Positions 24,834-38,799 of a stretch of DNA of 64,000 nt are shown one piece after another. A program made the position numbers and the translations under genes. The notes beneath the pieces were generated by a model. The model did no database searches. It saw only the letters and a program-made list of their open reading frames with translations, and was not told the origin of the DNA. The stretch is from positions 2,572 through 66,571 of the forward strand of contig JAYPIL010000002.1 in assembly GCA_038127845.1 (NCBI GenBank), in the 5' to 3' direction. This stretch comes from Poseidonia sp. (GTDB taxonomy: Archaea > Thermoplasmatota > Poseidoniia > Poseidoniales > Poseidoniaceae). Each line of letters begins with the position of its first letter. Positions within the stretch are counted from its first letter, which is position 1.

Positions 24834-24922
24834 GTCGTGGAGTTGAGCCTGTCAAAACAAGCGTTGAGGTCCGTTTGAACAACCACATCTTTTAGAACGG
24901 TTGACATCAGCATTCCCTTGAT

Positions 24923-26125
24923 ATGACGGGATACTTGGACCGCATCGGCGCTGGGCTCATCATCGCCCATCCAGAGATGCTGGATTTTGACCATGTGCCA
25001 GAAGAACTGGTGGGTCGAGAAGACATCCAAACGGCCTTGGCGTCCAAGTTCACCACCGTTGGCTCACCCGAAGGAGCGGCCAGAGCGGTCATCACCGGAC
25101 CGGTTGGAAGCGGCAAAACGGTGCTTGCCAAAACCTTCTGTCGCGATCTTCAACGCCACCTTTCGGGAAAACGAGAAATCACGGTTGCTCATGTCAATTG
25201 TCGCAATGCCTCAACGAGCATGCGTGTTGCACAGCGCATTTTGCACCAGTTTGACCCGGGCCACCCTGACCGTGGCCTCTCGATGGGCGAATTGTTGCTG
25301 AGTTTGCGAAAAATGCTGCGTCGGACCTCAACCCATTTGATCGTGGTGTTGGATGAAGTGGATCACATGCTCCGACGTTCGGGCGATGAGTTGCTCTACC
25401 AACTGCTTCGTATCGACGAAGATCAGGAAGGTTCGGGAACCGTTTCCCTCATCCTCATCAGCCAAGAGCAGGTGCTTGACGTTCTGGAGACCGCTGTGCT
25501 CTCAAAGTTTGGACAATCCAACCACGTTCGCGTACCTTCGTATACCGTTGATGGGCTTGAGGCCATCGCACGCCAACGAGCCGAAATGGCCCTTGTCCCG
25601 GGCACGTGGAATGAGGGTTTGATTCGGTTGGTGGCCGAACGGGCTGGCGATAGCGGCGATGCTCGTCGCGTCATTGAGTACCTCAGCAGTGCGGCAGAAC
25701 GGGCAGAATTCCGACAGGACGGTCATACCGAGCAGATCATCACCGTAGAGGACCTCCATGCAGTCAACGAGCAATTGGCCAGCGATACGTCAAATCGTCT
25801 TGAAATCGTTGATGATTTGGCACCGCAGGGCATGTTGGTGCTCTTGGCCATGTGCCGAAGATTGCGCACGCAAGATTCGATGACCATGGGGGATGTTGAA
25901 CAACTCTATGCCGTGGTCTGTGAAGAATACGAACAAAAGCCGAAAAGCCACACCACGCTGTGGAAATACGCAAAACACATCGAGCAAGAAGGCATCATCT
26001 CGACGAGGGTTGCTACGGTGCCCGGAGGGCGAGGGCGAACGACCCATTTGAGCATGCCACACTTCCTCCCAGCCGACCTTGCAAACCGACTTGAATTGCT
26101 TCTCCCAAAGCGTTTACGCCGATGA
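24923..26125 (+). CDS. cdc6: Orc1/Cdc6 replication initiator
   Basis: 400 aa. HVPEELVGREDIQ, Walker A ITGPVGSGKT, Walker B VVLDEVD and a C-terminal winged helix (LWKYAKHIEQEGIISTRV...GRGRT). Confidence 0.9.
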   Translation: MTGYLDRIGAGLIIAHPEMLDFDHVPEELVGREDIQTALASKFTTVGSPEGAARAVITGPVGSGKTVLAKTFCRDLQRHLSGKREITVAHVNCRNASTSMRVAQRILHQFDPGHPDRGLSMGELLLSLRKMLRRTSTHLIVVLDEVDHMLRRSGDELLYQLLRIDEDQEGSGTVSLILISQEQVLDVLETAVLSKFGQSNHVRVPSYTVDGLEAIARQRAEMALVPGTWNEGLIRLVAERAGDSGDARRVIEYLSSAAERAEFRQDGHTEQIITVEDLHAVNEQLASDTSNRLEIVDDLAPQGMLVLLAMCRRLRTQDSMTMGDVEQLYAVVCEEYEQKPKSHTTLWKYAKHIEQEGIISTRVATVPGGRGRTTHLSMPHFLPADLANRLELLLPKRLRR

Positions 26126-27957: not shown

Positions 27958-28335
27958 ATGCAGCGCGTGCTCATCGACGCTTGCGGCTGGGTCGCCTGTA
28001 TGGATGCCCAACTCAACGTTGAACGAGAACTCGAAGCGCTGTTCGGTCCGTGTGAATGGATGTTGTTGTCGGCGGTTGAAGAGGAATTGTCGCAACTTCG
28101 GCATGAGCGACCACGAGCAAAACCGCTCCTGCTTGCCATGCTGCAGCAAAAATCCTCGGTGATAACGACCGAAGAGGGCGTGCACACCGACGATGCCATT
28201 TGGTCACTTGCGTCCGAACACGGTTGGGCGACCTTGACGGTAGATACCGCCCTCAAACATCGCCTGTTTGAAGCCAATCTGCCCGTGGTTGAAGTTCGTC
28301 AAAACAACCACCTCTACCTGATAGATTCGCTATAG
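27958..28335 (+). CDS. Small PIN-domain protein (conserved partner downstream of aIF2-gamma in archaea)
   Basis: 125 aa. N-terminal VLIDACGWV (first acidic PIN residue context). Position immediately after eif2g, with a GAGGAAGGG ribosome-binding site. The assignment rests on context plus a weak motif. Confidence 0.5.
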   Translation: MQRVLIDACGWVACMDAQLNVERELEALFGPCEWMLLSAVEEELSQLRHERPRAKPLLLAMLQQKSSVITTEEGVHTDDAIWSLASEHGWATLTVDTALKHRLFEANLPVVEVRQNNHLYLIDSL

Positions 28336-28340
28336 AACGG

Positions 28341-28640
28341 CTAAGGAAGCGTAAACAAGACGTCGTCACCGTGGCCGTCAAGCCAACCTATTTTGACACC
28401 GGCATCAATCCAAGCATGGGCGTAATTGATGGCACCAAATGCCCGAACCAAATCACCAGTTTCAAGGAAGTGCCGAGCATCAGATGCATAATCATCGGCC
28501 ATGCGCAACATGATCGCAAGATGGCGCTGTTCATCGCTGCCCTCCTCGACCAGCGATGTTGCCTTGGCTCTGGCTCGTTTGGTGATGTCAAGGTACTTTT
28601 CAACACGCTGCGTGGTGACGACCTCGTGTTCGCTGGTCAC
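28341..28640 (-). CDS. DUF357-family protein
   Basis: 99 aa. KYLDITKRA...DDYASDARHFLETGDLVRAFGAINYAHAWIDAGVKIGWL matches the DUF357 helical pattern. The GTG start overlaps the upstream stop (GTGA at 28637-28640). Confidence 0.55.
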   Translation of the reverse strand: MTSEHEVVTTQRVEKYLDITKRARAKATSLVEEGSDEQRHLAIMLRMADDYASDARHFLETGDLVRAFGAINYAHAWIDAGVKIGWLDGHGDDVLFTLP

Positions 28641-29689
28641 TCCCCTCCCTCCTTTTGACGACGTAAAAGACGACGTGCGTCCTCGGTTCGCCCGAGGGCT
28701 TCGTAAAGTTCGATGGCCAGTGAAAGTTTGCCGAGGTCTTCGGCTTCCTGTGCCCGCAGGAACATTTGACGACGCTCTTCCCAGCTCCTTGCCATGGCCG
28801 CTTCTGCAACGGCCTTGTAACGACCCTCACGCTCTGCCTCGGCAAGATGGGGTGCTGTCCAGCGTCGCACCAAACCGCTTCGATCGGCGGTTGCCATGGC
28901 GTCGGGCGTGCAAAGAACGAGAAGATCTCCGAGGTTCATGCGTTGTGTCAACGGTGGCTCCTCTTCATCGTTCAACCGGGGATTGGTCATGGAAACAAGA
29001 TGGCCTTCGATGCCCAGAACCCACCAACCATCTCCGCTGCGTACAGCGTTCATTGGCTCGAGCGAGTCGCTTTCTATTCGCTCAAGACTGTCCCAACCAA
29101 AAGGATGGGGCACCCCTTCCCATAAGCCGCCGTCGCCGCTCTGGAGGAGGAGCCTGCCGTCCTTGAGCGTCGAGCACCAACTCCAGGACCGGTCCTCAAT
29201 GCTGCGTTTCTTATCATCCCCCGTTAATCGGCCACACCAAAGCACACCCGATGGGTCCTGCCAAAGGAGATGCTCGCGGTCCAACCAGCCGACCAAACGC
29301 CTTACCGGTCCGCTCTCAACGCGACGAATGCCCCTGCCTTCCTGAGAAAACAGGTGAATTTGGCCGGCGCGGCCTGCAAGGGCCCAACCTCCGCCGGGTC
29401 GTACGGAAAGGTCGCTGAATCCACCCGGCGTACTCCTGCCTTCGTTCATCAACGAGCCGTCGGACGAGTTCATCAAGTAGAAACCGTGGGCGGCGAGGAC
29501 GCCGATGGTCCCTTGTACGACCTGAGCGGCATGAACTTTGAACGGAACTTCAACCTCCCAGCGAACGCCACCATCGGCTTCGAGGAGAATCATTTCCAAT
29601 CCGGCGCTTACAAGCACACCACCTTCGGCAGCAGCGATGGTGGCAATCCGAGCCTTTGCTTGCCAAGACCAAGCGATGTTCCAGGTCAT
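28637..29689 (-). CDS. Beta-propeller-like (PQQ/WD-like repeat) protein with a C-terminal helical, TPR-like tail
   Basis: Repeated units of about 40 aa with G-x-hydrophobic-W/L patterns (DGGVRWEV, DGSLMNEG, GGGWALAG, SGVLWCG, DGGLWEG, GDGWWVLG), then an Arg/Glu-rich helical tail. ATG 29689 shares 1 nt with the upstream TGA (TGATG). Confidence 0.45.
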   Translation of the reverse strand: MTWNIAWSWQAKARIATIAAAEGGVLVSAGLEMILLEADGGVRWEVEVPFKVHAAQVVQGTIGVLAAHGFYLMNSSDGSLMNEGRSTPGGFSDLSVRPGGGWALAGRAGQIHLFSQEGRGIRRVESGPVRRLVGWLDREHLLWQDPSGVLWCGRLTGDDKKRSIEDRSWSWCSTLKDGRLLLQSGDGGLWEGVPHPFGWDSLERIESDSLEPMNAVRSGDGWWVLGIEGHLVSMTNPRLNDEEEPPLTQRMNLGDLLVLCTPDAMATADRSGLVRRWTAPHLAEAEREGRYKAVAEAAMARSWEERRQMFLRAQEAEDLGKLSLAIELYEALGRTEDARRLLRRQKEGGE

Positions 29690-31542
29690 CAAAGACCACC
29701 TCCATCCAAGGCTCCCCATGCAACCAGTTGGGCACGAGCCGTTTGAGTGAGTGAATAATTACGAGAACGACCGGATTGCCGCACCTGTAGAATGCCGTGT
29801 TTCAAGAGGCGATTGCTGATTTGAGAAAGCCGGGCGCGTTTGACCTTGAGATGCTGGAGCATAACGCGGTCGGAAGGCGAGAAGGGCCGGTCGTTCGCAA
29901 CGCCCACAACATAGGCTTCCACCGAATTCAAGGAGCCAAGCAGATGCTTGTCAAGGGGGAAGATTTCCTTTGGCCCAACTTTGCTTTGCGCTCTCGCCTC
30001 GAAAAAAGCCATCAATCGCTCGTGAACGGGCGAGACGCCTTTTGAAGAAGGCCCCATGGTCGTGAGCAGAGCTTCCAAGAGTTGCATCGTTTGTTCATGA
30101 TCAACGGCTTGGTGTGGAGGTGTTGGCGCCTCGAGAGATGGAGATGGCGTGCTTTCTGGCGCATCAAAAAGTGGTTCCTCAATGGCGGGCATCTCCTCGT
30201 GAATTGGTTCAGGCAAACCAATCTCATCATGAATCAACGCTGCCGACTCATCTTCTGAAACGGGTTCTGGAGCTGCTTTAGGGAGACTGGCTTCATCGAC
30301 CCAGAGTTGGGACGAGGCAGAGGCTTCCTGCAACGTACCTTGCCGGTTTTTTGCCTCAGCCCTGAATTGATCCTTCACACCAAGGAAGTCCTTGTTTCGG
30401 TCAGCAAGACGGCCAAATGGGCCACTGGTGGGGAAGGAACGGGACAGGGATGGGTCGGAAGCATCGATGATGGAGGATGGAAAAGGAGGCGGCTGAAGCG
30501 GCTCATCGTTTGATTGCGCTTCATCCAAGGCACCGATATCCAAATCGAACAGCGACATTGGAGACAATTCCTCCTCGTCATCGCCATCAACCGCCAAACC
30601 ATCCTCGTCACGTTGGTCCCATGGAATCGAAGCATCGATGATTTCGGATTCATCCTCAACACGGTCGGACAAAGGAAGGAGGTCATCCGTTCCTTCAGAA
30701 GAGACTTCATCCAAAACCGGAGTCATCAGTGACCCAAGTTGGTGGGGTTCTTCCCTCGGCTGGGGTTTGGCGCTCGAGTCGAAATACGGCTGGTACGAGG
30801 CATTGGACTGTTGCATCCGCAGGGTATCGACGGCGTCACGAAGCATGGCGATAACGGACGCAGGATAACCATCGCAAGCATCGAGGATGGTGTTGGCATC
30901 ATGAAGTGTAAATTGGCTCTCGATGACACCAACCTCTCGCAAGCGCTGCTCGACCAGTTCCAACACGTCCGGGGCAGAAAATGGACGAAGTTTGAAGGGT
31001 TCAAACCCGTTGACGACGGTAGCAGGCAGTTGATGACGTTCTTTGACATCGCATACAAGCACCACCAGGGCTTTCAAGCGCTCAAGAGATGAATGGGCAT
31101 CTCTAAGGGCAACTTCAACCACAGAAAGGTCACTGGCAGGCACGTCGATAACCACGAGCGGAAGTTTGTCGGAGTAGCCATACATTTCCGTTACGAGGCG
31201 GTTCACCAACTCGTTTCTCCCAAGAGGCGGCTCCCCTCCAATGAGTTGCTCGTAGCACATCTCCAACATCGCCTGGGCTGGAGCGCTGGCTGGGAGGTGA
31301 TCGATGGAAATGTAGGCTCCAGCATAGGGTTTGAGGCAGCGAACAAGCGATGTTCTCCCCGAGCCCAACGGACCTGTGAGCATGACACGGCGAGCAGTCC
31401 CAAGTCGCAAATAGCTCCTTAGCAGTGCGAACTGATCTTTTCTGCCCACCAGTTTTGTGGCGTCCCCTGATTCAAGCGGGCGACTTGAGAATGGATTCAC
31501 ATCCAACAACGGTAAGCCGAAAGCGTGGGTCTCTTTCACCAT
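29689..31542 (-). CDS. AAA+/STAND-like ATPase with a long acidic linker and a C-terminal winged-helix DNA-binding domain (Orc1/Cdc6-like architecture)
   Basis: 617 aa. NPFSSRP...LVGRKDQFALLRSYL, Walker A LTGPLGSGRTSL and Walker B-like LPLVVIDV. About 250 aa of Asp/Glu/Pro/Ser-rich low complexity. The C-terminal RARLSQISNRLLKHGILQVRQSGRSRNYSLT is MarR/wHTH-like. Confidence 0.6.
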   Translation of the reverse strand: MVKETHAFGLPLLDVNPFSSRPLESGDATKLVGRKDQFALLRSYLRLGTARRVMLTGPLGSGRTSLVRCLKPYAGAYISIDHLPASAPAQAMLEMCYEQLIGGEPPLGRNELVNRLVTEMYGYSDKLPLVVIDVPASDLSVVEVALRDAHSSLERLKALVVLVCDVKERHQLPATVVNGFEPFKLRPFSAPDVLELVEQRLREVGVIESQFTLHDANTILDACDGYPASVIAMLRDAVDTLRMQQSNASYQPYFDSSAKPQPREEPHQLGSLMTPVLDEVSSEGTDDLLPLSDRVEDESEIIDASIPWDQRDEDGLAVDGDDEEELSPMSLFDLDIGALDEAQSNDEPLQPPPFPSSIIDASDPSLSRSFPTSGPFGRLADRNKDFLGVKDQFRAEAKNRQGTLQEASASSQLWVDEASLPKAAPEPVSEDESAALIHDEIGLPEPIHEEMPAIEEPLFDAPESTPSPSLEAPTPPHQAVDHEQTMQLLEALLTTMGPSSKGVSPVHERLMAFFEARAQSKVGPKEIFPLDKHLLGSLNSVEAYVVGVANDRPFSPSDRVMLQHLKVKRARLSQISNRLLKHGILQVRQSGRSRNYSLTQTARAQLVAWGALDGGGL

Positions 31543-31610
31543 AGACTTCCAACGGACTTCAAGTATTTGATGTTTGATTCAACTGCGCCGCCTTCAAGAC
31601 CTGTTACAAA

Positions 31611-31706
31611 CCGTTAGAATGGAAGCCGCCATTGATTCTAATGTGGAGTTAACGGCTGCTTAACGCATAATTAACGCGTTAGAGAAGGTGTTAATTTCCG
31701 TTAACC
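31611..31706. promoter_or_regulatory. Cluster of palindromes and TTAAC(G) repeats in the spacer between the ATPase-wHTH operon and hmgA
   Basis: Read directly. TTAGAATGG-N6-CCATTGATTCTAA at 31614-31641. TTAACG at 31649, 31660 and 31671. A perfect 10-bp palindrome TAACGCGTTA at 31672-31681. GTTAATTTCCGTTAAC at 31690-31705. This is the most AT-rich non-coding stretch in the window. The function is inferred. Confidence 0.3.
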
Positions 31707-31771
31707 TTCACCTCCAACAAGGGCGATTGGTTCAAGGAAGGCCTACGCCACCCCTCCACAAGGGGAAGGTT

Positions 31772-33070
31772 ATGCCTGTGGAAAACAGTCGAATTTCTGG
31801 CCTGTACAAAATGACGGTTGAAGAACGCCGGAGATTGGTCAGTGAGGCGGCTGGCTTGAGTACGGACCAGATCGCAGCCCTCGCACATTACGGAGAATTG
31901 GACGAACAGGCCGCCGACAGGATGATCGAGAATGTCATCGGCACCATGTCCCTGCCCGTGGGAGTTGCGACCAATTTCATCGTTGATGGAAAACACTACC
32001 TCATCCCCTTTTGCGTCGAAGAATCAAGCGTTGTGGCCGCTGCATCCAACATGGCAAAGCGTTGCTTGAGCAAAGGAGGATTCTCTACAAACAACGATCC
32101 CCCCGTGATGATCGGTCAACTTCAAGTCCTCGAGATCGAAGACATGGAACGCGCCATGAAAGCGATTGATGGAGCAAAGGACGAATTGTTGGCCTTCTGC
32201 AACGACGTCCCCTCCAGAATGATTGCCCTTGGAGGTGGATGCAAGGACATCCTCACTCGTCGACTCACAACGGAACTTGGCGAGATGCTGGTGATGCACT
32301 TGCTGGTAGACTGCAGAGATGCTATGGGCGCCAATGCCGTTAACACCATGGTGGAGCGAGTCGCTCCAACCATCGAAGAATTGACCGGAGGAAGAGCACA
32401 CCTCCGCATTCTTTCCAACCTGGCAGGCCATCGCTTGGCGAGGGTAAAGGCCACCTTTACCCCCGAAGAAATGGCCTCTGATGGCACCCGAGAGGACGGT
32501 CTTGTGACCATCAAAGGCATCCTCGAGGCACACACGTTTGCAGTTGAGGACCCCTACAGGGCGACAACGCACAACAAAGGCATCATGAACGCCATCAGCA
32601 GCATTGCGCTCGCCTGTGGACAGGATTGGCGTGCGATTGAAGCAGGGTGCCATGCTTGGCCCACGCTGCAGCATGGCAAGTACACCTCGATGTCGCATTG
32701 GGAACAAGACGACGACGGCAACCTCGTCGGGAGCATGGAGCTCCCGATGGCCGTAGGCATTGTCGGAGGTGCTTCCAAAGTCCATCCAGCCGCACAGGCC
32801 AACCTTGCTATCCTCGGTGTTGAGACTGCACAGGAACTTGCAGGAATCATGCTCTGTGCGGGGTTGGCCCAAAACCTTGGTGCGCTCAGAGCGCTTTCAA
32901 CCAAAGGCATTCAAGCAGGTCACATGAAATTGCACGCCAAAAACATGGCCGTCAGCGCAGGTGCTGTTGGTGGAGAAATTGACCTTCTCGCATCCCGTCT
33001 ACAAGCCTTTGAAGGCCACCGTTCACAAACGCTGGTTGAGCAATGGCTCAAAGAGCTTCGAGAGGGCTGA
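31772..33070 (+). CDS. hmgA: HMG-CoA reductase, class II
   Basis: From ATG 31772, with an AGGGGAAGG ribosome-binding site: MPVENSRISGLYKMTVEERRRLV, ENVIGTMSLPVGVATNFIVDGKHYLIPFCVEESSVVAAASNMAK, DAMGANAVNT and GIQAGHMKLH are class II HMGR blocks. The track ORF starts at GTG 31688. Confidence 0.9.
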   Translation: MPVENSRISGLYKMTVEERRRLVSEAAGLSTDQIAALAHYGELDEQAADRMIENVIGTMSLPVGVATNFIVDGKHYLIPFCVEESSVVAAASNMAKRCLSKGGFSTNNDPPVMIGQLQVLEIEDMERAMKAIDGAKDELLAFCNDVPSRMIALGGGCKDILTRRLTTELGEMLVMHLLVDCRDAMGANAVNTMVERVAPTIEELTGGRAHLRILSNLAGHRLARVKATFTPEEMASDGTREDGLVTIKGILEAHTFAVEDPYRATTHNKGIMNAISSIALACGQDWRAIEAGCHAWPTLQHGKYTSMSHWEQDDDGNLVGSMELPMAVGIVGGASKVHPAAQANLAILGVETAQELAGIMLCAGLAQNLGALRALSTKGIQAGHMKLHAKNMAVSAGAVGGEIDLLASRLQAFEGHRSQTLVEQWLKELREG

Positions 33071-33072
33071 CT

Positions 33073-33681
33073 TCACTCTTCCTCAGGTAGCGGGAGTGAA
33101 GCCTGAACGGTCCCCCCTTCGGCCCCTTCATCACGCAACACATCGTTTGCTGCCAATTCATCGAGCAGGCCAGAGGCTTGCACTTGTTCACGGAACCAAG
33201 CTTTGACCTTCTTGCGGTCCGTATGTGGGCAACCAAAGGCCTCCGAGAAGCGCCGCGTCGTTGCAAGCCGCCGAGTGTTGCCGTCTTTGCGTCGGTCAAC
33301 CATGCCCAACTGGGCAAGTTCACGGACGTAATCGTAGGCTTTCTGCCCCAAAAGTTCAACCAACCTCGATTGAGGCATGGGCTGGTGGTAGGCAATCAAG
33401 GCTGCAGCCTTGAGAAGTTTCGGCGGCATGTCTGTCTTGGTTTCCTTTGGGAGATGGGAAGCGATCGCCGGTTTGACTTCCAAGGCCCACCGGTCGCCAA
33501 CTTCAGCCAACTGGAGAGCACCTCCTTTGCGCCGGCGTAGGGTTGCCTGAAGAGAACCAAGACAATCGAGCATTTCGTCCTCATCGTAGCCCAGCGCTTC
33601 AGACAGTTCATGAACGGACATGGATTTACCTGAACTGAAGAGCGTGGCTTCAATCAGCGTTTCAAGAGGCGTTTCCGACAT
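33073..33681 (-). CDS. scpB: Segregation and condensation protein B
   Basis: LETLIEATLFSSGKSMSVHELSEALG plus tandem winged-helix organisation, directly downstream of scpA. ATG 33681 is preceded by GGAGGTG. The track start is GTG 33687. Confidence 0.8.
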   Translation of the reverse strand: MSETPLETLIEATLFSSGKSMSVHELSEALGYDEDEMLDCLGSLQATLRRRKGGALQLAEVGDRWALEVKPAIASHLPKETKTDMPPKLLKAAALIAYHQPMPQSRLVELLGQKAYDYVRELAQLGMVDRRKDGNTRRLATTRRFSEAFGCPHTDRKKVKAWFREQVQASGLLDELAANDVLRDEGAEGGTVQASLPLPEEE

Positions 33682-33693
33682 CACCACACCTCC

Positions 33694-34890
33694 TCATTCC
33701 ACCAGCCAGTCGTGTTCGCCCAGGCCATCCTGGGTTTCGGTAGGCTGGGAAACCTCCGCAGCAGCAACCTCTGCCTCAAGCTTCGCTTGACGCCGTGCTT
33801 CGCGTTCTTCGGCTCGTCGGGCTCGCTCAGCAAGCGCCTCCATCCTGTGGTCTGAACCGGTGCTCTCACCTTCGAGCCCCTCTGCATCCTCGGCCATGAC
33901 CGCTTCAACAGCGTCCAACACATCCGTGAACACGTTGATTTCTGGCCACAAATCTTCAATCATGATGTTCGAGACGGCCTCGCCTTCCTGTGAAATACTC
34001 GCCATACGCCGATGCGTAAGGAACAATCCTGCGATGAAGGAAGCGACGAAAGCCTCGCTGTCTGCATCGTCAAGCCCATTTCCAAACAGGGAAATCAACA
34101 TGGGTTTGAGTTTCTCCATCACCGCCATCAAGGGCACTGTGGATGACCGCTGTTCCGCACAGGTTTCCTTCAGCGCGTTCCAACAGCGTTCGATGTCGCC
34201 CTCAAGGTCTTCGTTGTGCATTCGACCACCAACGTTGTCGAGGTACTCGCTCAGTTCACGCTCATGCTCCAAGCGATTGATTTCACGCTGTTTGAGATTT
34301 TCAGCATCGTCAGCTGCATCTTTGAAGGCAGAAAGCAACTCGGCAAGCGTGACTGGTCGACCTTCATCTCGTCGAACACGCTCGTCAAACAGCGTCGGTA
34401 GAACATCATCTGCGGCGCCGTCCAGGACGGATTGCGTGAAGAAAAAGGCCTCATCGTCGTAGTCCTGCTCCCATCCAAAGGAGAGGTCGTCACCCCACTC
34501 TTCCTCTTGTTCGGGTGGCTGGATTTTCTCAAACAAAACAACAGACTGATGGTGAAGCACTTCCCAAGAGAGTCGTATGAGACGTCCACATGCAGGCAGG
34601 TCGAGGTTTTCTTCTTCCTGCACGCGTTTTGAAAAGACCGTCAAAAAGGTGGACAAATCGACGTTCCACGGGTTGAATTCCTCTTCCCGGACCAACGAGA
34701 GGACCAAAGCCACCGAGCGGTCAAACGGGTCGTGGAGGCTCTGATGTTCGGCTTCCTCTGTTGCGGCAATGTTCGCAATACGCTGACCAAACAATTCAGC
34801 GTCAATGTGGTCCTCACCGTGCGCGAGAAGCTCGTCGATGATTTCCTGCTTCAGAAACCATCGGTCCAAAGCACCTTGCTCTTCTGCCAC
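33694..34890 (-). CDS. scpA: Segregation and condensation protein A (kleisin)
   Basis: 398 aa. EEFNPWNVDLSTFLTVF (ScpA N-terminal motif), an acidic middle and a C-terminal wHTH-like region. GTG start 9 nt after the smc stop, with a GGTGGA ribosome-binding site. Confidence 0.75.
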   Translation of the reverse strand: MAEEQGALDRWFLKQEIIDELLAHGEDHIDAELFGQRIANIAATEEAEHQSLHDPFDRSVALVLSLVREEEFNPWNVDLSTFLTVFSKRVQEEENLDLPACGRLIRLSWEVLHHQSVVLFEKIQPPEQEEEWGDDLSFGWEQDYDDEAFFFTQSVLDGAADDVLPTLFDERVRRDEGRPVTLAELLSAFKDAADDAENLKQREINRLEHERELSEYLDNVGGRMHNEDLEGDIERCWNALKETCAEQRSSTVPLMAVMEKLKPMLISLFGNGLDDADSEAFVASFIAGLFLTHRRMASISQEGEAVSNIMIEDLWPEINVFTDVLDAVEAVMAEDAEGLEGESTGSDHRMEALAERARRAEEREARRQAKLEAEVAAAEVSQPTETQDGLGEHDWLVE

Positions 34891-34899
34891 GCTTCCACC

Positions 34900-37800
34900 T
34901 CACTCGTCCATTTGTTCAACCGTGGTTGATTCCGCCTCAGTTGGTCCCTCAACTTCTGCTTCGATGACTTGAGCAGCCACTTCAGCACGTTCGTTGATGT
35001 CTTCCGTCGTTTCTTGCGTTCGTTCCATCAAGTTCCCGAGGCTCGGTGCCTCCAGTTCACCCTCAGAGGATTGGAGATGTGGAAGCAGACCTCCCAGACT
35101 GCGAGGCACATCCAATTCATCGGGCACTTGAGGCATGTCTTCAGCAGCAGCCACCGCATCCATGATTCGGGATTCGTTCTTGGCCGCGTCTTTCTGAGCC
35201 TCTTTGAGGGCAGCCTCACCGAGGGCGATGGCATGTTCTCGGTCAAAGTCGAGGATGCGACGGCTGCAACCATCGCCGCCGTGGGTAATGCCGATGTGGT
35301 GGTCGGCCAGTTTCAACGACACCTTGCGGAGCGTGACCATGATGAATTGCGCTCGTTTGCTGCGTTGACGGCACATTTTTGCGATTCTCTCGGCGTTGTA
35401 GGCATCCAGGTTTTGGTCCACCTCGTCGAAGTAATAGAACGGGCTCGGGTCGTAATCTTGGATGGCGAAAATGAGGGCAAGTGCGGCCATGGATTGCTCG
35501 CCGCCGGACAATTGTTGACGGCTGACTTTGGAGGACTTTCCTCGCGGTTGCGCCCAAAGTTCCAATCCTCCCTTGAAGGGTTCATCGGGATTTTCAAGGA
35601 ACAATTCGCCCCGGCCACCGTCCGAGAGTTCGTTGTAGGATTTCTTGAAATTCTCGTTGACCTTCTCCAACACATCGAGAAGCCGCTCTTTTCGTTGCGT
35701 TTCGAGTTGTTCCGTGATCTCGATGAGATGTTTGCGTCGCGTTTGGAGGGTAGCAAACTCGTCCTTCATCAAATCGAGACGAGCCTCGCATTCATCGTAT
35801 TGCTGAATGGCCATCATGTTGACGTTGCCAAAGTCTTCGAGCCTGCGTTGAAGACGGCGGAGTTTACGCTCCAGTTCACCCACGTTTTCGAGGTTGTCAG
35901 GCATGTCGTGCAGGGAGAGATTGGCGTCGATGAGTTCCTGAGCCATCAACTGCACCTCTTGTTCTTTCTCTGCGATGGTACGACCGAGTTCGTGAGCCAA
36001 TCGGCGGTGGTTTTCGGATTGCGCAAGCCGCTCTTCGTTGCGAACTCGCAATGTGGCTCGCTGGTCGGTGAGTTCTTGCCGTTCGTCCTCCAAGCCTTGG
36101 TTTTCTTCGAGATAAACGGCCTGTTCATCCTTTTTCGCTTTCAATTCCATACGGTCGGATGCCAACGTGGCCTCGAGTTCATCAACCCGCTCGATGCGTG
36201 CCTCTTTGTTGGCTTTCAGCGCAAGGATTCGTGCCTCGATGTCGTCAACCCGTCGCTGCAGAACGGCTTGATGGTTCGCCCCGTTCGCAATCGTTTCTTC
36301 CGCTTTTTCTTGCTCGCCTTGGGCCGTCACCCGCTTCAAGTTTGCAGCGTGCATGCGGTCTCGGAGGTGTTCGGGACTGGCGGCTTCAAGGGCGTGTTTT
36401 GCGGTTTCTTTTGCATCGAAAGAGACCTGGTAAACCCGTTCGGCTGCATCAAGGGCCCGCAAAGAATCCTGTGCTTCAAGGCGTACTTCATCGAGTTTGG
36501 TTTCGAGGGCTCCAGCCACATCTGAGGCCTTTTTGTGCGAGGCGGTGACCTGTCGCTTTTCGGCCTGCAACTCACGAAGTTGTGAAGCATGCGAATCATC
36601 GACAAGGGCGTTGATCTTGTTGCGAATGGTTTGTTGATTTTGCCGTGCCTCTCTCAAGGCCTCGTTGACCGTGGTCTCTGCGAGCATGTACTGCTGGACT
36701 TGAGCCGTGTATTTCTCAACCTCCGATGCGCCCTGAATCCGGCCGCCAAAGGAAATCGACATCTTTCGTTGAGCGCCTCCGACCATGGCACCACCTGCCT
36801 CAACAACGTCACCACGTAGCGTCACGAAGCGAACACCGCCCATGTATCGGCGAGCAGTAGCCATGTTTTCGACAACAAGCGTGTTTCGCAAAACAAACCG
36901 AACCGCCCCGTCAATGCGAGGGTCGAAGTCCATCATCTCATGAGCAAAACCGAGGACGTCGTCCTTTCGAGCCGTCATCATGGCTTTCCCGGCCGGTCGT
37001 GTGTTCGTGAGCTTGTTGAGCGGCAGGAACGTTGCGCGACCTGCTCGGTTTTCTGCGAGCCAGCGAATCGCCTTGGCTGCATCCTCATCGGTGTCCACGA
37101 CCACGGAAGCCATTCCAGCCCCAATGGCGGTGGCCAAAGCCACCTCGTGGGTAGCATCCTTGGGAGCGCACAACTCGGCAATCGTCCCGATGATGCCATC
37201 GAGTTCACCTCGGTCACGAGCCCCAATCACTGCACTTGCGCCACCTGCAAGGCCCTTGGCACCTGACTTCTGCTCCATCTCTGCCTTCGCCAGGCTCAAC
37301 GAACGTTCAGCCTCTCGGAGTTTGACCTCAACACGACTCCGGTCCTCGCTCAATTGGGACTCGGCTCGCTGAGCATCTACCAGCGCCTTTGCAAGGGCTT
37401 CACGGTCAAATTCGGGAGCCTCGTCGTTCATGGCCTCGATTTGTAGGTCAAGTTCACCCAACGAAAGTCGAATGCGCTCTTGTTCTTCCTGAGCATCCGC
37501 AAGTTGCTTGCCGATGAGTTCTGCCTCAACGGCCAGGCGGTCCACATCGGATTGGGCTTGGGCTTTGTTGGCGAGGTCGCTCTCGACCTTTTCTTCGGCC
37601 TTGGTGAGGGCCTCACTCAAGGCTTGGTTCTGCTCACCAGCTGATTCGAGCGCCAGCCGCACCTGTTCCTCTTCTTGCTGGGCTTCTTGAAGCGAGTTGA
37701 GGGCCTCTTGCAAGGCGGCGTTGGCCGTCTCAAGGTTTGACTTGAACGTGTTCAATTCCTCCGTGGCTTCTTCGAGTTGAGCGTTGGCTGCGTCAAATTC

Positions 37801-38799
37801 AACACCCTCTTCCTGTTCTTCTTTCGCTGCGTCAGCAATGCGATCGGAGTTCAACTCGATGGCGACTTGGAGGGCTTGAATGGCTTGGCCAAGTTCAGAT
37901 GTTTCACCACCGGTGAGTTTGTTGATTTCTGCTTGCAACTCAGCGATTTTATCGTCAAGTTCGAGCAGCGTTTTCTCGGTCACTTTGTGATCGTCGAGCA
38001 GTCGTTGACTGTCGTCGAGGTATTTTTGCCGTTGCTCGATGTGAAATTGGAGTTCGTTCTTCATGGTTGCATAACGGGATTGGAGCAACAAGGCGTTTGT
38101 CAAGGTGATGGAATCCGTGACCTCTTTGGCTTTCTGGGCCACATGCCGTTCCTTGGCCAGGGTTGACAAACGCTCGAGCTGCTCTTTCTCGAGCATGCCA
38201 ATCCGCTCAAGATAGCTCTCAACCTTCTCTTTTTGCTTGGTCGCTTTGCGAATCTCATCGTCGTAGGAGGTGACGCCTGCCACGTTGTCAAGGACTTTTC
38301 TTCGTTCATTTGCGGTCATTTTTGCGAGGCTCGTGACGTCGCCCTGCAAGACGATGTTGTAGCCGTCAGGCCGGGCATTCGCAGCGCCAAGCAGACGATG
38401 AAACACCTTCTGGCTGCTGTCTTCCCCATTCAACATGTACGTCGTCACGGGGTTGTTGGAAGATGTGAGGCGAATTCGGCGAGACATGCGAATTTCTTCT
38501 TTGTCAAGCGGCAGACGGCGGCGACCGTTGGCCATGACAGGATTCGCGAACACCAGCGTGACCGAACAATCTCGAGCTGGTTTGGAATTCTTTCCGCCGT
38601 TGAAGATGAGGTCCGTCGAGTTTTGGGCGCGAATCACCCGATTTGACTTCGGGCCGAGAACAAATTGAATGGCATCGCCACAGTTTGATTTCCCGGACCC
38701 GTTCGGACCTGTGATAGCTGTAAAACCACGGTCGAGGGGGACCGTCACCTCGCCCTTGAACGATTTGAAATTGAGCATTTCAAGTGATTTTAGATACAT
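34900..38799 (-). CDS. smc: Chromosome segregation ATPase SMC
   Basis: 1299 aa. FKSFKG...ITGPNGSGKSN (Walker A), long coiled coils, a hinge (GTIAELC...AIGAGMASVVVD), LSGGEQSMAALALIFAIQ (signature motif) and YYFDEVD (Walker B). Confidence 0.96.
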   Translation of the reverse strand: MYLKSLEMLNFKSFKGEVTVPLDRGFTAITGPNGSGKSNCGDAIQFVLGPKSNRVIRAQNSTDLIFNGGKNSKPARDCSVTLVFANPVMANGRRRLPLDKEEIRMSRRIRLTSSNNPVTTYMLNGEDSSQKVFHRLLGAANARPDGYNIVLQGDVTSLAKMTANERRKVLDNVAGVTSYDDEIRKATKQKEKVESYLERIGMLEKEQLERLSTLAKERHVAQKAKEVTDSITLTNALLLQSRYATMKNELQFHIEQRQKYLDDSQRLLDDHKVTEKTLLELDDKIAELQAEINKLTGGETSELGQAIQALQVAIELNSDRIADAAKEEQEEGVEFDAANAQLEEATEELNTFKSNLETANAALQEALNSLQEAQQEEEQVRLALESAGEQNQALSEALTKAEEKVESDLANKAQAQSDVDRLAVEAELIGKQLADAQEEQERIRLSLGELDLQIEAMNDEAPEFDREALAKALVDAQRAESQLSEDRSRVEVKLREAERSLSLAKAEMEQKSGAKGLAGGASAVIGARDRGELDGIIGTIAELCAPKDATHEVALATAIGAGMASVVVDTDEDAAKAIRWLAENRAGRATFLPLNKLTNTRPAGKAMMTARKDDVLGFAHEMMDFDPRIDGAVRFVLRNTLVVENMATARRYMGGVRFVTLRGDVVEAGGAMVGGAQRKMSISFGGRIQGASEVEKYTAQVQQYMLAETTVNEALREARQNQQTIRNKINALVDDSHASQLRELQAEKRQVTASHKKASDVAGALETKLDEVRLEAQDSLRALDAAERVYQVSFDAKETAKHALEAASPEHLRDRMHAANLKRVTAQGEQEKAEETIANGANHQAVLQRRVDDIEARILALKANKEARIERVDELEATLASDRMELKAKKDEQAVYLEENQGLEDERQELTDQRATLRVRNEERLAQSENHRRLAHELGRTIAEKEQEVQLMAQELIDANLSLHDMPDNLENVGELERKLRRLQRRLEDFGNVNMMAIQQYDECEARLDLMKDEFATLQTRRKHLIEITEQLETQRKERLLDVLEKVNENFKKSYNELSDGGRGELFLENPDEPFKGGLELWAQPRGKSSKVSRQQLSGGEQSMAALALIFAIQDYDPSPFYYFDEVDQNLDAYNAERIAKMCRQRSKRAQFIMVTLRKVSLKLADHHIGITHGGDGCSRRILDFDREHAIALGEAALKEAQKDAAKNESRIMDAVAAAEDMPQVPDELDVPRSLGGLLPHLQSSEGELEAPSLGNLMERTQETTEDINERAEVAAQVIEAEVEGPTEAESTTVEQMDE

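What the first reader, a model, noticed from the sequence alone, without database searches (positions are those of the whole stretch)
28341..31542. Translationally coupled trio: AAA+ ATPase-wHTH with a giant acidic linker, a beta-propeller-like protein and DUF357
The three minus-strand genes are stitched together by overlapping stop/start signals: TGATG at 29687-29691 and GTGA at 28637-28640. This argues for stoichiometric co-expression. The first protein has Orc1/Cdc6-like logic (an N-terminal P-loop NTPase with LVGR...E...L, Walker A GPLGSGRTS, a VVID Walker B and a C-terminal winged helix), but the two ends are separated by about 250 residues of Asp/Glu/Pro-rich disorder. The second combines propeller-like repeats with a TPR-like helical tail. 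The third belongs to a family of unknown function. I know of no described system with this composition. It lies directly beside the palindrome-rich spacer at 31543-31771, which could be the wHTH target.
Basis: partly seen in the sequence, partly recalled or inferred. Interest (0 to 1): 0.6.

Follow-up and report, generated by a model that had tools for sequence, protein, structure and literature searches.

The report
Conserved Poseidoniales ATPase-wHTH operon with operator array
Marine Group II archaea carry a deeply conserved, uncharacterised three-gene operon: a DNA-binding, probably non-hydrolysing ATPase with a long acidic disordered middle, a beta-propeller protein, and the pan-archaeal unknown DUF357, all preceded by a unique array of TTAACGC repeats that is probably the ATPase's own binding site.

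Summary
Three minus-strand genes (29689-31542, 28637-29689, 28341-28640) overlap by TGATG and GTGA, and each internal start has a Shine-Dalgarno motif. The organism is a Poseidoniales (Marine Group II) archaeon.

ORF1 has a confident AAA+ base and lid, a 275-residue acidic linker (pI 4.05) and a basic ArsR/MarR-like winged helix. Its key motifs are degenerate: Walker A Lys is Arg and the Walker B Glu is missing. It is only remotely Orc1/Cdc6-like. Its nearest relatives are compact 400-residue PF01637/AAA_16-wHTH ATPases that lack the linker.

ORF2 is a beta-propeller with a four-helix tail and has no Pfam family. ORF3 is DUF357, a near-universal archaeal gene of unknown function.

The operon and its overlaps are kept in about 160 loci. 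ORF2 is missing in Thalassarchaeaceae, where the ATPase runs directly into DUF357.

A new result is a unique array of six TTAACGC half-sites at 10-12 bp spacing (31649-31704). It is conserved across both families and stays with the ATPase gene when another gene separates it from HMG-CoA reductase.

Best reading: an autoregulated nucleotide-switch DNA-binding complex. Its function is unproven. I rate it a new variant of a known kind, of moderate to good interest.

The parts
29689..31542 (-). ORF1, 617 aa: AAA+/STAND-like P-loop domain, acidic disordered linker, C-terminal winged helix-turn-helix
   Evidence: The ORF is listed. AAA_16 matches 39 of 40 family members, all below the curated cut-off. 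The AF2 model is and the Foldseek result. Only 179 relatives turn up among 1.84 billion representative proteins.
30808..31542 (-). ORF1 residues 1-245: N-terminal 'LPLL..NPF..RP' motif, VGR, Walker A GPLGSGRTS (Arg in place of Lys), Walker B VVID-V (no Glu), and a lid with invariant G225-x-P227
   Evidence: pLDDT is about 90. Invariant columns are. hhalign gives 94.6% against Orc1/Cdc6 and 98.5% against the compact relatives P0380/P0386. The top Foldseek hit is 2qby_A, an Orc1/Cdc6.
29983..30807 (-). ORF1 residues 246-520: acidic, Pro-rich, disordered linker with conserved short motifs (IIDAS.PW..R twice, LFDLD..AL.EAQ..DEPLQP.PF, G.FG.L..R, YWV, ALIHDE[IV]GL)
   Evidence: It has 58 acidic and 16 basic residues and pI 4.05. 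pLDDT is mostly below 50 for residues 247-480. The motifs are visible. The linker is absent from the 400-aa relatives.
29692..29982 (-). ORF1 residues 521-617: basic ArsR/MarR-like winged helix, with recognition helix KRARLSQISNRL and wing GILQVRQSGRSRNYSL
   Evidence: pLDDT is 88-96 and pI is 10.97. Columns R569, R571, L572, S573, Q574, I575 and N577 are invariant family-wide. There are weak ArsR and MarR_2 hits. hhalign gives 97.1% against the P0380 wHTH.
28637..29689 (-). ORF2, 350 aa: beta-propeller (residues ~1-279) plus four C-terminal helices (280-347); no Pfam family
   Evidence: AF2 mean pLDDT is 88.1. Foldseek finds only generic BamB and WD40 propellers, E 2e-13, TM 0.5-0.6. None of 35 members matches any Pfam family. 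Homologues were found only in Poseidoniales.
28341..28640 (-). ORF3, 99 aa: DUF357 (arCOG01224), a small helical bundle
   Evidence: Pfam PF04010 matches at E 1.9e-20. PDB relatives are 2oo2 and 2pmr. It is a near-universal archaeal gene of unknown function (PMC6393860; PMC12680538).
29687..29691 (-). TGATG overlap of the ORF1 stop and the ORF2 start
   Evidence: Read directly. A 1-nt or 4-nt overlap is kept in 79 of 80 loci.
28637..28640 (-). GTGA overlap of the ORF2 stop and the DUF357 start, preceded by GGAGGGAGGGGA
   Evidence: Read directly. A 4-nt overlap is kept in 72 of 75 loci.
31649..31704 (.). Array of six TTAACG(C/G) half-sites. Three are forward (starts 31649, 31660, 31671). Three are reverse (GTTAG or GTTAA at 31678, 31690, 31700). 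Spacing is 10-12 bp and the centre is the palindrome TAACGCGTTA (31672-31681).
   Evidence: Seven of the 31 TTAAC/GTTAA words in the 64-kb window fall in this 80-bp stretch. The array is conserved in Poseidoniaceae and Thalassarchaeaceae and stays with the ATPase gene in L167.
31603..31618 (.). Two further degenerate half-sites (GTTAC at 31603, CGTTAG at 31612), 10 bp apart, between the array and the ORF1 start
   Evidence: Seen. They appear as 'gatTAACg..Tc.TAACg' in the Poseidoniaceae spacer consensus.
31563..31575 (-). Conserved BRE/TATA-like block AAACATCAAATAC, ending 20 nt before the ORF1 ATG. It is the likely core promoter of a leaderless or short-leader operon transcript.
   Evidence: The block 'TgAAAcATgAtATAC' is conserved in 77 spacers and in the alignment. 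The promoter role is inferred from its position and composition only.

Best explanation
ORF1 is a sequence-specific DNA-binding nucleotide switch. It descends from the roughly 400-residue archaeal PF01637/AAA_16-wHTH ATPases, which are themselves distant kin of Orc1/Cdc6 and STAND NTPases. In Poseidoniales it gained a 240-residue (up to about 650 in some lineages) acidic disordered insert between the AAA+ lid and the winged helix, and it lost the residues needed for fast ATP hydrolysis.

I propose the following mechanism:
1. The basic ArsR/MarR-like winged helix binds the TTAACGC half-sites.
2. The nucleotide-bound AAA+ modules oligomerise. This fills the one-helical-turn-spaced array about 100-170 bp upstream of the protein's own leaderless promoter.
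3. Binding sets transcription of the operon. In most lineages it may also affect the divergent HMG-CoA reductase gene.
4. The acidic linker acts as an intramolecular DNA mimic or inhibitor, or as a docking platform through its conserved short motifs.
5. The co-translated beta-propeller/helical protein ORF2 is the likeliest partner or sensor. DUF357 is a further co-expressed partner.

Shown: gene structure, folds, degenerate motifs, conservation of the operon and of the array, and linkage of the array to the ATPase gene. Inferred: DNA binding at the array, oligomerisation, the regulatory outcome, and the ORF2 and DUF357 contacts.
For: Architecture and folds:
- AF2 models the AAA+ base and lid and the winged helix confidently, with a disordered middle.
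- Structural neighbours are Orc1/Cdc6, Cdc6, MuB, TnsC and RFC, all DNA-associated AAA+ proteins.
- hhalign against PF01637/AAA_16-wHTH relatives gives 98.5% for the N domain and 97.1% for the C domain. Those relatives have only about 20 residues where ORF1 has its linker.
- The recognition helix is almost invariant across the family.

The array:
- It is unique in the 64-kb window.
- A Poisson estimate from those counts gives well below 1e-6 for six sites in 80 bp.
- In about 1.7 Mb of related loci, more than half of all TTAAC/GTTAA words lie in the 320 bp upstream of the ATPase gene: 491 of 880 in Poseidoniaceae loci and 601 of 917 in Thalassarchaeaceae loci.
- The distance from array centre to start codon is fixed. 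It is 138-139 nt in 72 of 79 Poseidoniaceae loci and 161 nt in most Thalassarchaeaceae loci.
- In L167 an AhpC gene sits between HMG-CoA reductase and the ATPase. The array is on the ATPase side, and none lies next to the reductase.

Charge: the linker has pI 4.05 and the wHTH has pI 10.97.

Operon: overlaps and SD motifs are conserved in about 160 loci. In L166 the downstream Orc1-S6e-eIF2gamma-PIN block is inverted, yet the trio stays intact.
Against: - There is no direct evidence of DNA binding, oligomerisation or regulation.
- The half-site and the recognition helix are both invariant, so there is no covariation to tie them together.
- Another regulator could use the array.
- The compact relatives P0380 and P0386 show no comparable array upstream of their genes.
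- ORF2 is dispensable in Thalassarchaeaceae.
- DUF357 is linked to other genes in other archaea. It may simply share a transcript in a 97%-coding genome.
- The whole region is syntenic across the order, which weakens any inference from synteny.
- The Arg-for-Lys change and the missing catalytic Glu could mean the domain no longer binds nucleotide at all.
- No transcript data could be recovered.
Confidence: 0.45

Rival explanations
1. The array is an origin-of-replication or iteron-like element, or another chromosome-organising site. ORF1 would then be a degenerate Orc1/Cdc6-type initiator or accessory factor that nucleates on it. The locus lies 5.4 kb from the canonical orc1/cdc6 gene and 1.4 kb from the smc-scpA-scpB operon.
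For: The best structural match of the N domain is Sulfolobus Orc1/Cdc6 bound to origin DNA. hhalign gives 94.6% against the window's own Orc1/Cdc6, including the lid motif. The model has two helices between beta2 and beta3, as in the initiator-specific motif. Half-sites repeated at helical periodicity in inverted groups next to the gene of an initiator-like protein resemble ORB or iteron layouts. In the AT-rich Thalassarchaeaceae locus L165, five sites and two further sites flank a stretch of about 60 nt that is very AT-rich. Canonical orc1/cdc6 has only an 89-bp upstream gap, so it has no obvious origin of its own. Orc1, SMC and ScpAB are conserved neighbours.
Against: The winged helix shows no detectable similarity to the Cdc6 WHD (probability 0.2%). 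No Cdc6_lid or Cdc6_C Pfam hit is found. The nearest relatives are non-initiator PF01637 ATPases in variable contexts. In the window there is no AT-rich unwinding element between the inverted half-site groups. Cumulative GC skew shows no inflection at 31.6 kb within the 64-kb window. The half-site does not resemble known ORB consensus sequences (my own knowledge). MGII was already reported to have recognisable Orc1-1 and Orc1-2 genes (PMC3914693).
Confidence: 0.15
2. The array and ORF1 primarily regulate the divergent HMG-CoA reductase gene, and so isoprenoid lipid synthesis. ORF2 and DUF357 would be unrelated passengers.
For: The array lies closer to the reductase start (about 95 nt) than to the ORF1 start (about 135 nt). 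The reductase-array-ATPase arrangement is kept in nearly all loci. A conserved promoter-like block sits between the array and the reductase start.
Against: In L167 the reductase is separated from the array by AhpC and has no array of its own, while the ATPase keeps it. The distance from the array to the ATPase start is the one that is fixed. The distance to the reductase start varies from 90 to 134 nt.
Confidence: 0.15
3. There is no dedicated three-protein system. The three genes are functionally unrelated and share one transcript only because the genome is streamlined. Overlapping stop/start junctions, once formed, are hard to undo.
For: The window is 97% coding, and about a fifth of same-strand neighbour pairs could overlap. 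DUF357 is a universal housekeeping-type gene that is linked elsewhere to DUF555 and a cytidylyltransferase. ORF2 is absent from a whole family. The whole 15-kb region is frozen.
Against: The ATPase-DUF357 adjacency survives both the loss of ORF2 and an inversion of the downstream block. ORF1 and ORF2 are both lineage-restricted and always adjacent where both exist, including the divergent L166 and L167 lineages. SD motifs are maintained at both junctions.
Confidence: 0.2
4. It is a STAND/AAA+ anti-virus defence or other accessory module.
For: There are weak nSTAND1 and AAA_16 hits. A GxP-type lid motif is present. The compact relatives sit beside toxin-antitoxin genes and HerA-like ATPases.
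Against: The gene is single-copy, sits at a fixed core-genome position among housekeeping genes in every species examined, and shows no PADLOC match of note.
Confidence: 0.03

Closest known systems
PF01637 (ATPase_2, 'archaeal ATPase') / AAA_16 proteins with a C-terminal MarR-like winged helix, here represented by P0380 and P0386
   Same: They share the N-terminal NPF...P motif, the VxR-Walker A layout, the G-N-P lid motif and the RPRxSQIxNxL recognition helix. hhalign gives 98.5% for the N domain and 97.1% for the C domain. These were the only non-Poseidoniales-type full-length proteins recovered by the exhaustive HMMER search.
   Different: They are about 400 aa, with only about 20 residues between the lid and the wHTH. 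They keep the canonical Walker A Lys and a DD Walker B. They are coupled to a HerA/DUF87-like ATPase in variable contexts rich in toxin-antitoxin genes. No TTAACG array lies upstream of them. Their function is also unknown.
Archaeal Orc1/Cdc6, including the non-initiator Orc1-2 that acts as a DNA-damage transcription regulator in Saccharolobus (PMC6061795, PMC9738581)
   Same: The order of AAA+ base, lid and C-terminal winged helix is the same. ORF1's best structural neighbour is an Orc1/Cdc6 (2qby_A). Remote sequence homology spans the whole AAA+ module. Orc1-2 is a precedent for an Orc-like protein used as a promoter-binding regulator.
   Different: ORF1 has no Cdc6_lid or Cdc6_C signature and no detectable WHD similarity. 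A 275-aa acidic insert is present. Walker A Lys is replaced by Arg and the Walker B Glu is lost. The sensor-2 Arg of GDAR is replaced in Poseidoniaceae (G-Y-P-A) but retained as G-N-P-R in Thalassarchaeaceae.
STAND signalling NTPases (MalT/AfsR-type, AAA_16) with WD40 or TPR sensor domains
   Same: ORF1 gives AAA_16 and nSTAND1 hits and has a GxP lid motif. It carries an HTH effector in the same protein, and a beta-propeller plus TPR-like protein is encoded next door.
   Different: The putative sensor is a separate polypeptide and is dispensable in one family. No STAND-type WHD or arm follows the lid. All Pfam matches fall below the curated thresholds.
DUF357 / arCOG01224 (PDB 2OO2, 2PMR)
   Same: ORF3 is a clear member (73 bits).
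   Different: In other archaea it is reported as linked to DUF555 and a TagD-like cytidylyltransferase. Here it is translationally coupled to ORF2 or directly to the ATPase-wHTH gene.

Membership tests
Orc1/Cdc6 | Passes the Cdc6 lid (PF22703) and Cdc6_C winged-helix (PF09079) models | tested here: not met
   ORF1 gives no such hits, while the window's true Orc1/Cdc6 (24923-26125) hits both. hhalign of the C domain against an Orc1 profile gives probability 0.2%.
Orc1/Cdc6 | AAA+ module homologous to the initiator clade (Walker A/B, ISM, lid) | tested here: inconclusive
   hhalign gives 94.6%, E 7e-8, over residues 29-245. The Foldseek top hit is 2qby_A. The model has two helices between beta2 and beta3. 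RFC and other AAA+ proteins score similarly.
Orc1/Cdc6 | Catalytic residues: Walker A GK[TS], Walker B D[DE], sensor-2 Arg (GDAR) | tested here: not met
   The sequence reads GSGRTS and VVID-V, and G-Y-P-A stands in place of G-D-A-R. Arg is the majority Walker A residue, and Lys occurs in a few lineages.
PF01637 ATPase_2 / PF13191 AAA_16 with wHTH (archaeal ATPase) | Pfam score above the gathering threshold | tested here: not met
   AAA_16 scores 29.0 bits against a cut-off of 32.6 for ORF1. It is matched at E<=1e-3 by 39 of 40 family members. ATPase_2 is not hit by ORF1.
PF01637 ATPase_2 / PF13191 AAA_16 with wHTH (archaeal ATPase) | Homology of both the ATPase and the wHTH modules to bona fide members | tested here: met
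   P0380 and P0386 pass the ATPase_2 and AAA_16 thresholds. ORF1 family profiles align to them at 98.5% (N) and 97.1% (C).
STAND NTPases | NBD-HD1(GxP)-WHD core followed by a repeat sensor in the same chain | tested here: not met
   The GxP-like motif is present (invariant G225 and P227). The lid is followed by a disordered linker. The propeller is a separate protein.
DUF357 (PF04010, arCOG01224) | Pfam score above the gathering threshold, with similarity to 2OO2 and 2PMR | tested here: met
   ORF3 scores 73.1 bits against a cut-off of 29.4. PDB matches are E 3.4e-9 to 2oo2 and 2.1e-5 to 2pmr.
Beta-propeller fold (BamB/PQQ/WD40-like) | Closed multi-blade four-stranded beta-sheet propeller | tested here: met
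   AF2 gives pLDDT 88 with about 28 strands. More than 1,700 Foldseek matches are propellers, the best being BamB at E 2e-13 and TM 0.53-0.63. This is fold resemblance only. No sequence family matches.
ArsR/MarR-type winged helix regulators | Significant match to an ArsR, MarR or related HTH model | tested here: inconclusive
   Only weak hits are found: NCBIfam BigR and ArsR at E 0.13-0.39, PDB ArsR at E 0.02 with the family profile, and MarR_2 at E 3.5e-4 to 1e-3 in some relatives. The topology in the model fits ArsR.
Known anti-phage defence systems (PADLOC) | Match to a defence-system protein model | tested here: not met
   The only hit is IetA at E 0.0085, 13.5 bits, over the P-loop.

The most novel reading that the evidence does not exclude
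The operon encodes a previously unknown archaeal nucleoprotein machine. A hydrolysis-dead, Orc-like ATPase polymerises on an iteron-like array beside orc1/cdc6 and smc-scpAB. Through its acidic motif-bearing tether it recruits a beta-propeller adaptor and the universal DUF357 protein. If so, it would give the first functional handle on DUF357 as a DNA- or chromosome-associated factor, and would mark a chromosome landmark (an origin, centromere-like site or master regulatory site) in the most abundant planktonic archaea.
Probability: 0.12. Interest if true: 0.85.

Novelty: new variant of a known kind. Interest (0 to 1): 0.55.

Why it matters
Poseidoniales (Marine Group II) are among the most abundant archaea in the surface ocean. 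They have never been cultured, so conserved lineage-specific genes are the main clue to their cell biology.

This operon is single-copy and held at a fixed position in every lineage sampled. It pairs a new architecture with a sharply defined cis-element that can be tested directly in vitro. The architecture is an AAA+ switch, a long acidic tether with conserved short motifs, and a basic winged helix.

The operon also physically couples a DNA-binding protein to DUF357. DUF357 is one of the few near-universal archaeal proteins that still lacks any function and is listed as a top-priority target (PMC6393860). If the proteins interact, this would be a rare lead on that family.

The linker insertion into a compact ATPase-wHTH ancestor is also a clean natural example of how a disordered regulatory tether is acquired.

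Tried and rejected
- Transcript evidence. Three metatranscriptome runs from a study that holds this genome gave zero coverage, so co-transcription and start sites are untested.
- Known RNA in the spacer or region. Rfam at E<=1 found nothing.
- Defence system. PADLOC gave nothing meaningful.
- Array elsewhere. A scan of viral contigs for TTAACGC-N3-5-TTAACGC returned only scattered single matches consistent with chance.
- A linker motif specific to ORF2-bearing lineages. The IIDAS motifs are specific to Poseidoniaceae, but the ORF2-bearing L166 and L167 lineages lack them. No ORF2-docking motif could be assigned.
- A TTAACG array upstream of the compact relatives P0380 and P0386. None was found.
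- Origin test by GC skew. The window shows no inflection at the spacer, but 64 kb is too short to decide.
- Orc1-2 identity. This is rejected, because MGII already has recognisable Orc1-1 and Orc1-2 genes and the WHD is unrelated.
- ORF2 start at 29719. This is rejected in favour of 29689, from the N-terminal conservation.
- An apparent absence of ORF2 in L167 was a gene-calling error. The full 346-aa ORF is present with a 4-nt overlap.
- Structure prediction was capped at two jobs. No complex (multimer) model and no separate fold search of the wHTH domain could be run.

Full report
**Observation.** The region holds three minus-strand ORFs exactly as described.
- ORF1 (29689-31542, 617 aa) ends with TGA at 29691-29689. 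The ORF2 ATG at 29689-29687 overlaps it, giving TGATG at 29687-29691.
- ORF2 (28637-29689, 350 aa) ends with TGA at 28639-28637. The GTG start of ORF3 (28341-28640, 99 aa) overlaps it, giving GTGA.
- GGAGGTG and GGAGGGAGGGGA lie just upstream of the two internal starts.
- Homologues of ORF2 all begin M-[TS]-W-x-[IV]-x-W-S-W-Q, so 29689 and not 29719 is the true start.
- The window is about 97% coding. Roughly 7 of 34 same-strand neighbour pairs could overlap in this way, so an overlap on its own is ordinary here.

**Organism and neighbourhood.** Named homologues are all Candidatus Poseidoniales, Poseidoniaceae or Poseidonia, that is Marine Group II archaea. The local gene order is smc-scpA-scpB (33073-38799, minus), HMG-CoA reductase (31772-33070, plus), the trio (minus), then PIN_9, eIF2-gamma, S6e and a canonical Orc1/Cdc6 (24923-26125).

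**ORF1.**
- Pfam gives only a sub-threshold AAA_16 match (29 bits against a cut-off of 32.6) and a faint nSTAND1 match. AAA_16 is matched by 39 of 40 family members.
- AlphaFold2, run with a 40-sequence alignment, models residues 10-245 (P-loop alpha/beta base plus helical lid) and 482-610 (helices plus winged helix) at pLDDT about 90. Residues 247-480 are largely below 50.
- Foldseek places the N domain nearest to Sulfolobus Orc1/Cdc6 on origin DNA (2qby_A, E 4.5e-8). Human Cdc6, RFC subunits, MuB, ORC and TnsC follow.
- Profile-profile comparison with an Orc1/Cdc6 profile built from about 100 Poseidoniales sequences gives 94.6% probability (E 7e-8) over residues 29-245. This includes the lid, where G-Y-P-A-S-V-I-A-M-L aligns with G-D-A-R-R-V-I-E-Y-L. 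The C-terminal domain shows no similarity (0.2%).
- The catalytic set is degenerate. Walker A is GPLGSGRTS, with R63 invariant in Poseidoniaceae. Arg is the majority residue family-wide, and Lys occurs in a few lineages. Walker B is VVID-V, with no acidic residue after D133. The sensor-2 position is Ala in Poseidoniaceae, whereas Thalassarchaeaceae keep G-N-P-R.
- The linker (residues 246-520) has 58 acidic and 16 basic residues, 11% Pro and pI 4.05. The C-terminal 97 residues have pI 10.97.
- The linker is less conserved than the domains (majority fraction 0.48 against 0.75-0.78). It still carries conserved short motifs: IIDAS.PW..R twice, LFDLD..AL.EAQ..DEPLQP.PF, G.FG.L..R, YWV and ALIHDE[IV]GL. 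G.FG.L..R and two Trp positions are kept family-wide.

**How restricted is the ORF1 family?** An exhaustive HMMER search of 1.84 billion representative proteins with the family profile found only 179 proteins at E<=1e-3. Generic AAA+ proteins are not among them.
- The full-length hits share one architecture: the N-terminal LP.L..NPF..RP motif, VGR, G..GSG[R>K][TS], an acidic middle, and the C-terminal SPSD..L...L.V.R.RLSQI.N.L...GIL.VR..GR.R.F.LS.
- Two hits, P0380 (397 aa) and P0386 (440 aa), are different. They have the same N-terminal motif, the G-N-P lid motif and the RPRxSQILNxL recognition helix. They also have a canonical Walker A Lys, a DD Walker B and only about 20 residues between lid and winged helix.
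- Both pass the Pfam thresholds for ATPase_2 (PF01637) and AAA_16, and both hit MarR_2.
- They align to the ORF1 family at 98.5% (N) and 97.1% (C).
- They sit in variable neighbourhoods with toxin-antitoxin genes and are coupled to HerA/DUF87-like ATPases.
- ORF1 is therefore best described as a derivative of the compact archaeal ATPase-wHTH family. It acquired a long acidic disordered insert and lost its hydrolysis residues. Orc1/Cdc6 is a more distant relative.

**ORF2 and ORF3.**
- ORF2 has no Pfam, NCBIfam or PDB sequence match.
- Its AF2 model (mean pLDDT 88.1) is a beta-propeller followed by four helices at residues 280-347.
- Foldseek returns only generic propellers such as BamB, WD40 proteins and coatomer, with TM 0.5-0.63.
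- ORF3 is a clear DUF357 (73 bits) and is related to PDB 2OO2 and 2PMR.
- DUF357 is arCOG01224. It is present in 463 of 524 archaeal genomes and is listed as a top-priority uncharacterised protein. It is described as tightly linked to DUF555 and a TagD-like cytidylyltransferase (PMC6393860). It is one of 76 archaeal single-copy marker genes (PMC12680538).

**Conservation of the operon.**
- In 79 species-level genome loci the order is invariably ScpB, reductase (opposite strand), ATPase, ORF2, DUF357, then PIN_9, eIF2-gamma and Orc1 on the opposite strand. This holds down to 32% ATPase identity.
- In 80 metagenome loci of the second family, ORF2 is absent, and the ATPase gene overlaps or abuts DUF357. 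Names identify this family as Thalassarchaeaceae (MGIIb).
- Two divergent lineages keep the full trio. In L166 (Poseidoniales, ATPase of 507 aa) the Orc1-S6e-eIF2gamma-PIN block is inverted while the trio and its overlaps are intact.
- In L167 (ATPase of 1012 aa) the gene caller had truncated ORF2, but the full 346-aa ORF is there with a 4-nt overlap.
- Junction statistics:
  - ATPase to ORF2: overlap of 1 or 4 nt in 79 of 80 loci.
  - ORF2 to DUF357: overlap of 4 nt in 72 of 75 loci.
  - ATPase to DUF357 in the ORF2-less family: overlap of 4 nt in 46 of 81 loci, and nearly all the rest lie within 9 nt.
  - SD-like motifs at about 96% of the Poseidoniaceae junctions.
- ORF2 is thus old but dispensable. 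The ATPase-DUF357 link is the constant.

**The spacer.**
- The 229-bp spacer holds six TTAACG(C/G) half-sites. Three are forward (31649, 31660, 31671). Three are reverse (31678, 31690, 31700). Spacing is 10-12 bp, around the palindrome TAACGCGTTA.
- TTAAC and GTTAA are rare in the window (31 occurrences against about 91 expected), and 7 of them fall in this 80-bp stretch.
- The array is conserved while the surrounding spacer diverges.
- The median number of half-sites within 80 bp is 6 in Poseidoniaceae and 7 in Thalassarchaeaceae.
- More than half of all such words in about 1.7 Mb of loci lie in the 320 bp upstream of the ATPase gene.
- The distance from array centre to the ATPase start is 138-139 nt in 72 of 79 Poseidoniaceae loci and 161 nt in most Thalassarchaeaceae loci. 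The distance to the reductase start varies.
- In L167 an AhpC gene separates the reductase from the ATPase. The array lies on the ATPase side, and none lies beside the reductase.
- L165 has five perfect 11-bp-spaced ACGTTAA repeats.
- A conserved BRE/TATA-like block (AAACATCAAATAC, 31563-31575) ends 20 nt before the ORF1 ATG. This suggests a leaderless first gene, with SD-led internal genes (inference).

**Interpretation.** The most economical reading is an autoregulated DNA-binding switch.
- The basic winged helix recognises the half-sites.
- The nucleotide-binding but probably non-hydrolysing AAA+ modules drive cooperative filling of the helically phased array.
- The acidic tether either masks the winged helix or presents docking motifs.
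- The co-translated propeller protein and DUF357 are the candidate partners.

None of these biochemical steps is shown. The evidence is anatomical and comparative. Rivals remain open:
- an origin-like, iteron-like or chromosome-organising role, suggested by the Orc-like fold, the array layout and the orc1 and smc neighbours;
- primary control of HMG-CoA reductase, which the L167 arrangement weakens;
- an operon of unrelated genes in a streamlined genome.

A defence role is unlikely.

**Novelty.** I found no description of this protein family, of the ORF2 family or of the array in Pfam, NCBIfam, PADLOC, PDB or the searchable literature. I rate it a new variant of a known kind, namely an archaeal ATPase-wHTH regulator. 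It has a new architecture, new partners and a defined cis-element, and it occurs in an ecologically dominant, uncultured lineage.

Noticed in passing
window, whole 64 kb: TTAAC and GTTAA are strongly under-represented: 14 and 17 occurrences against about 46 expected per orientation. GTTAAC occurs only 7 times. This may reflect avoidance of a restriction site (HpaI-type) or selection against stray binding sites for the array-binding protein.
   Followed up: no
window 28333-28343: The stop codons of the convergent genes DUF357 (minus strand) and PIN_9 (plus strand, 27958-28335) are only 5 nt apart. The transcripts must therefore end inside or overlap the opposite gene.
   Followed up: no
window 24834-24922 and 24923-26125: The canonical Orc1/Cdc6 gene has only an 89-bp upstream gap and no obvious repeat-rich intergenic region beside it. 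The replication origin is therefore not evident next to orc1 in this window.
   Followed up: partly
L166 5654-9157: In one divergent Poseidoniales lineage (GCA_002715545.1) the Orc1-S6e-eIF2gamma-PIN_9 block is inverted relative to all other loci. The ATPase-ORF2-DUF357 trio is untouched.
   Followed up: partly
L167 7214-7678 and 8001-11039: In another lineage an AhpC/peroxiredoxin gene is inserted between HMG-CoA reductase and the ATPase. The ATPase there is 1012 aa, the extra length lying between the N-terminal domain and the wHTH. Family members range from 507 to 1012 aa, and the differences lie mainly in the linker.
   Followed up: partly
L168 5538-9072; L170 56-7971: The compact 400-aa relatives of ORF1 are translationally coupled to a HerA/DUF87-like ATPase of about 770 aa. 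In L170 they lie next to PRTase-CE and 'ORC-CDC6-like' (PF24389/PF24390) genes, in neighbourhoods rich in PIN and MazE genes. This may be a separate, mobile or defence-type module.
   Followed up: partly
L005 11029-11299: In a 1-Mb long-read contig, DUF357 is called as a 49-aa fragment plus a 37-aa antisense ORF. This is probably an assembly indel rather than a true pseudogene.
   Followed up: no
window 31614-31641: A 7-nt perfect inverted repeat (TTAGAAT ... ATTCTAA, with a 14-nt loop) lies between the array and the auxiliary half-sites. I did not check whether it is conserved in relatives.
   Followed up: no
window 30520-30570 (ORF1 residues ~325-345): The linker motif SLFDLDIGALDEA resembles the acidic-hydrophobic pattern of eukaryotic and viral acidic activation domains, for example the VP16-type DFDLDML. 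That comparison rests on my own knowledge. It is conserved in Poseidoniaceae only.
   Followed up: no
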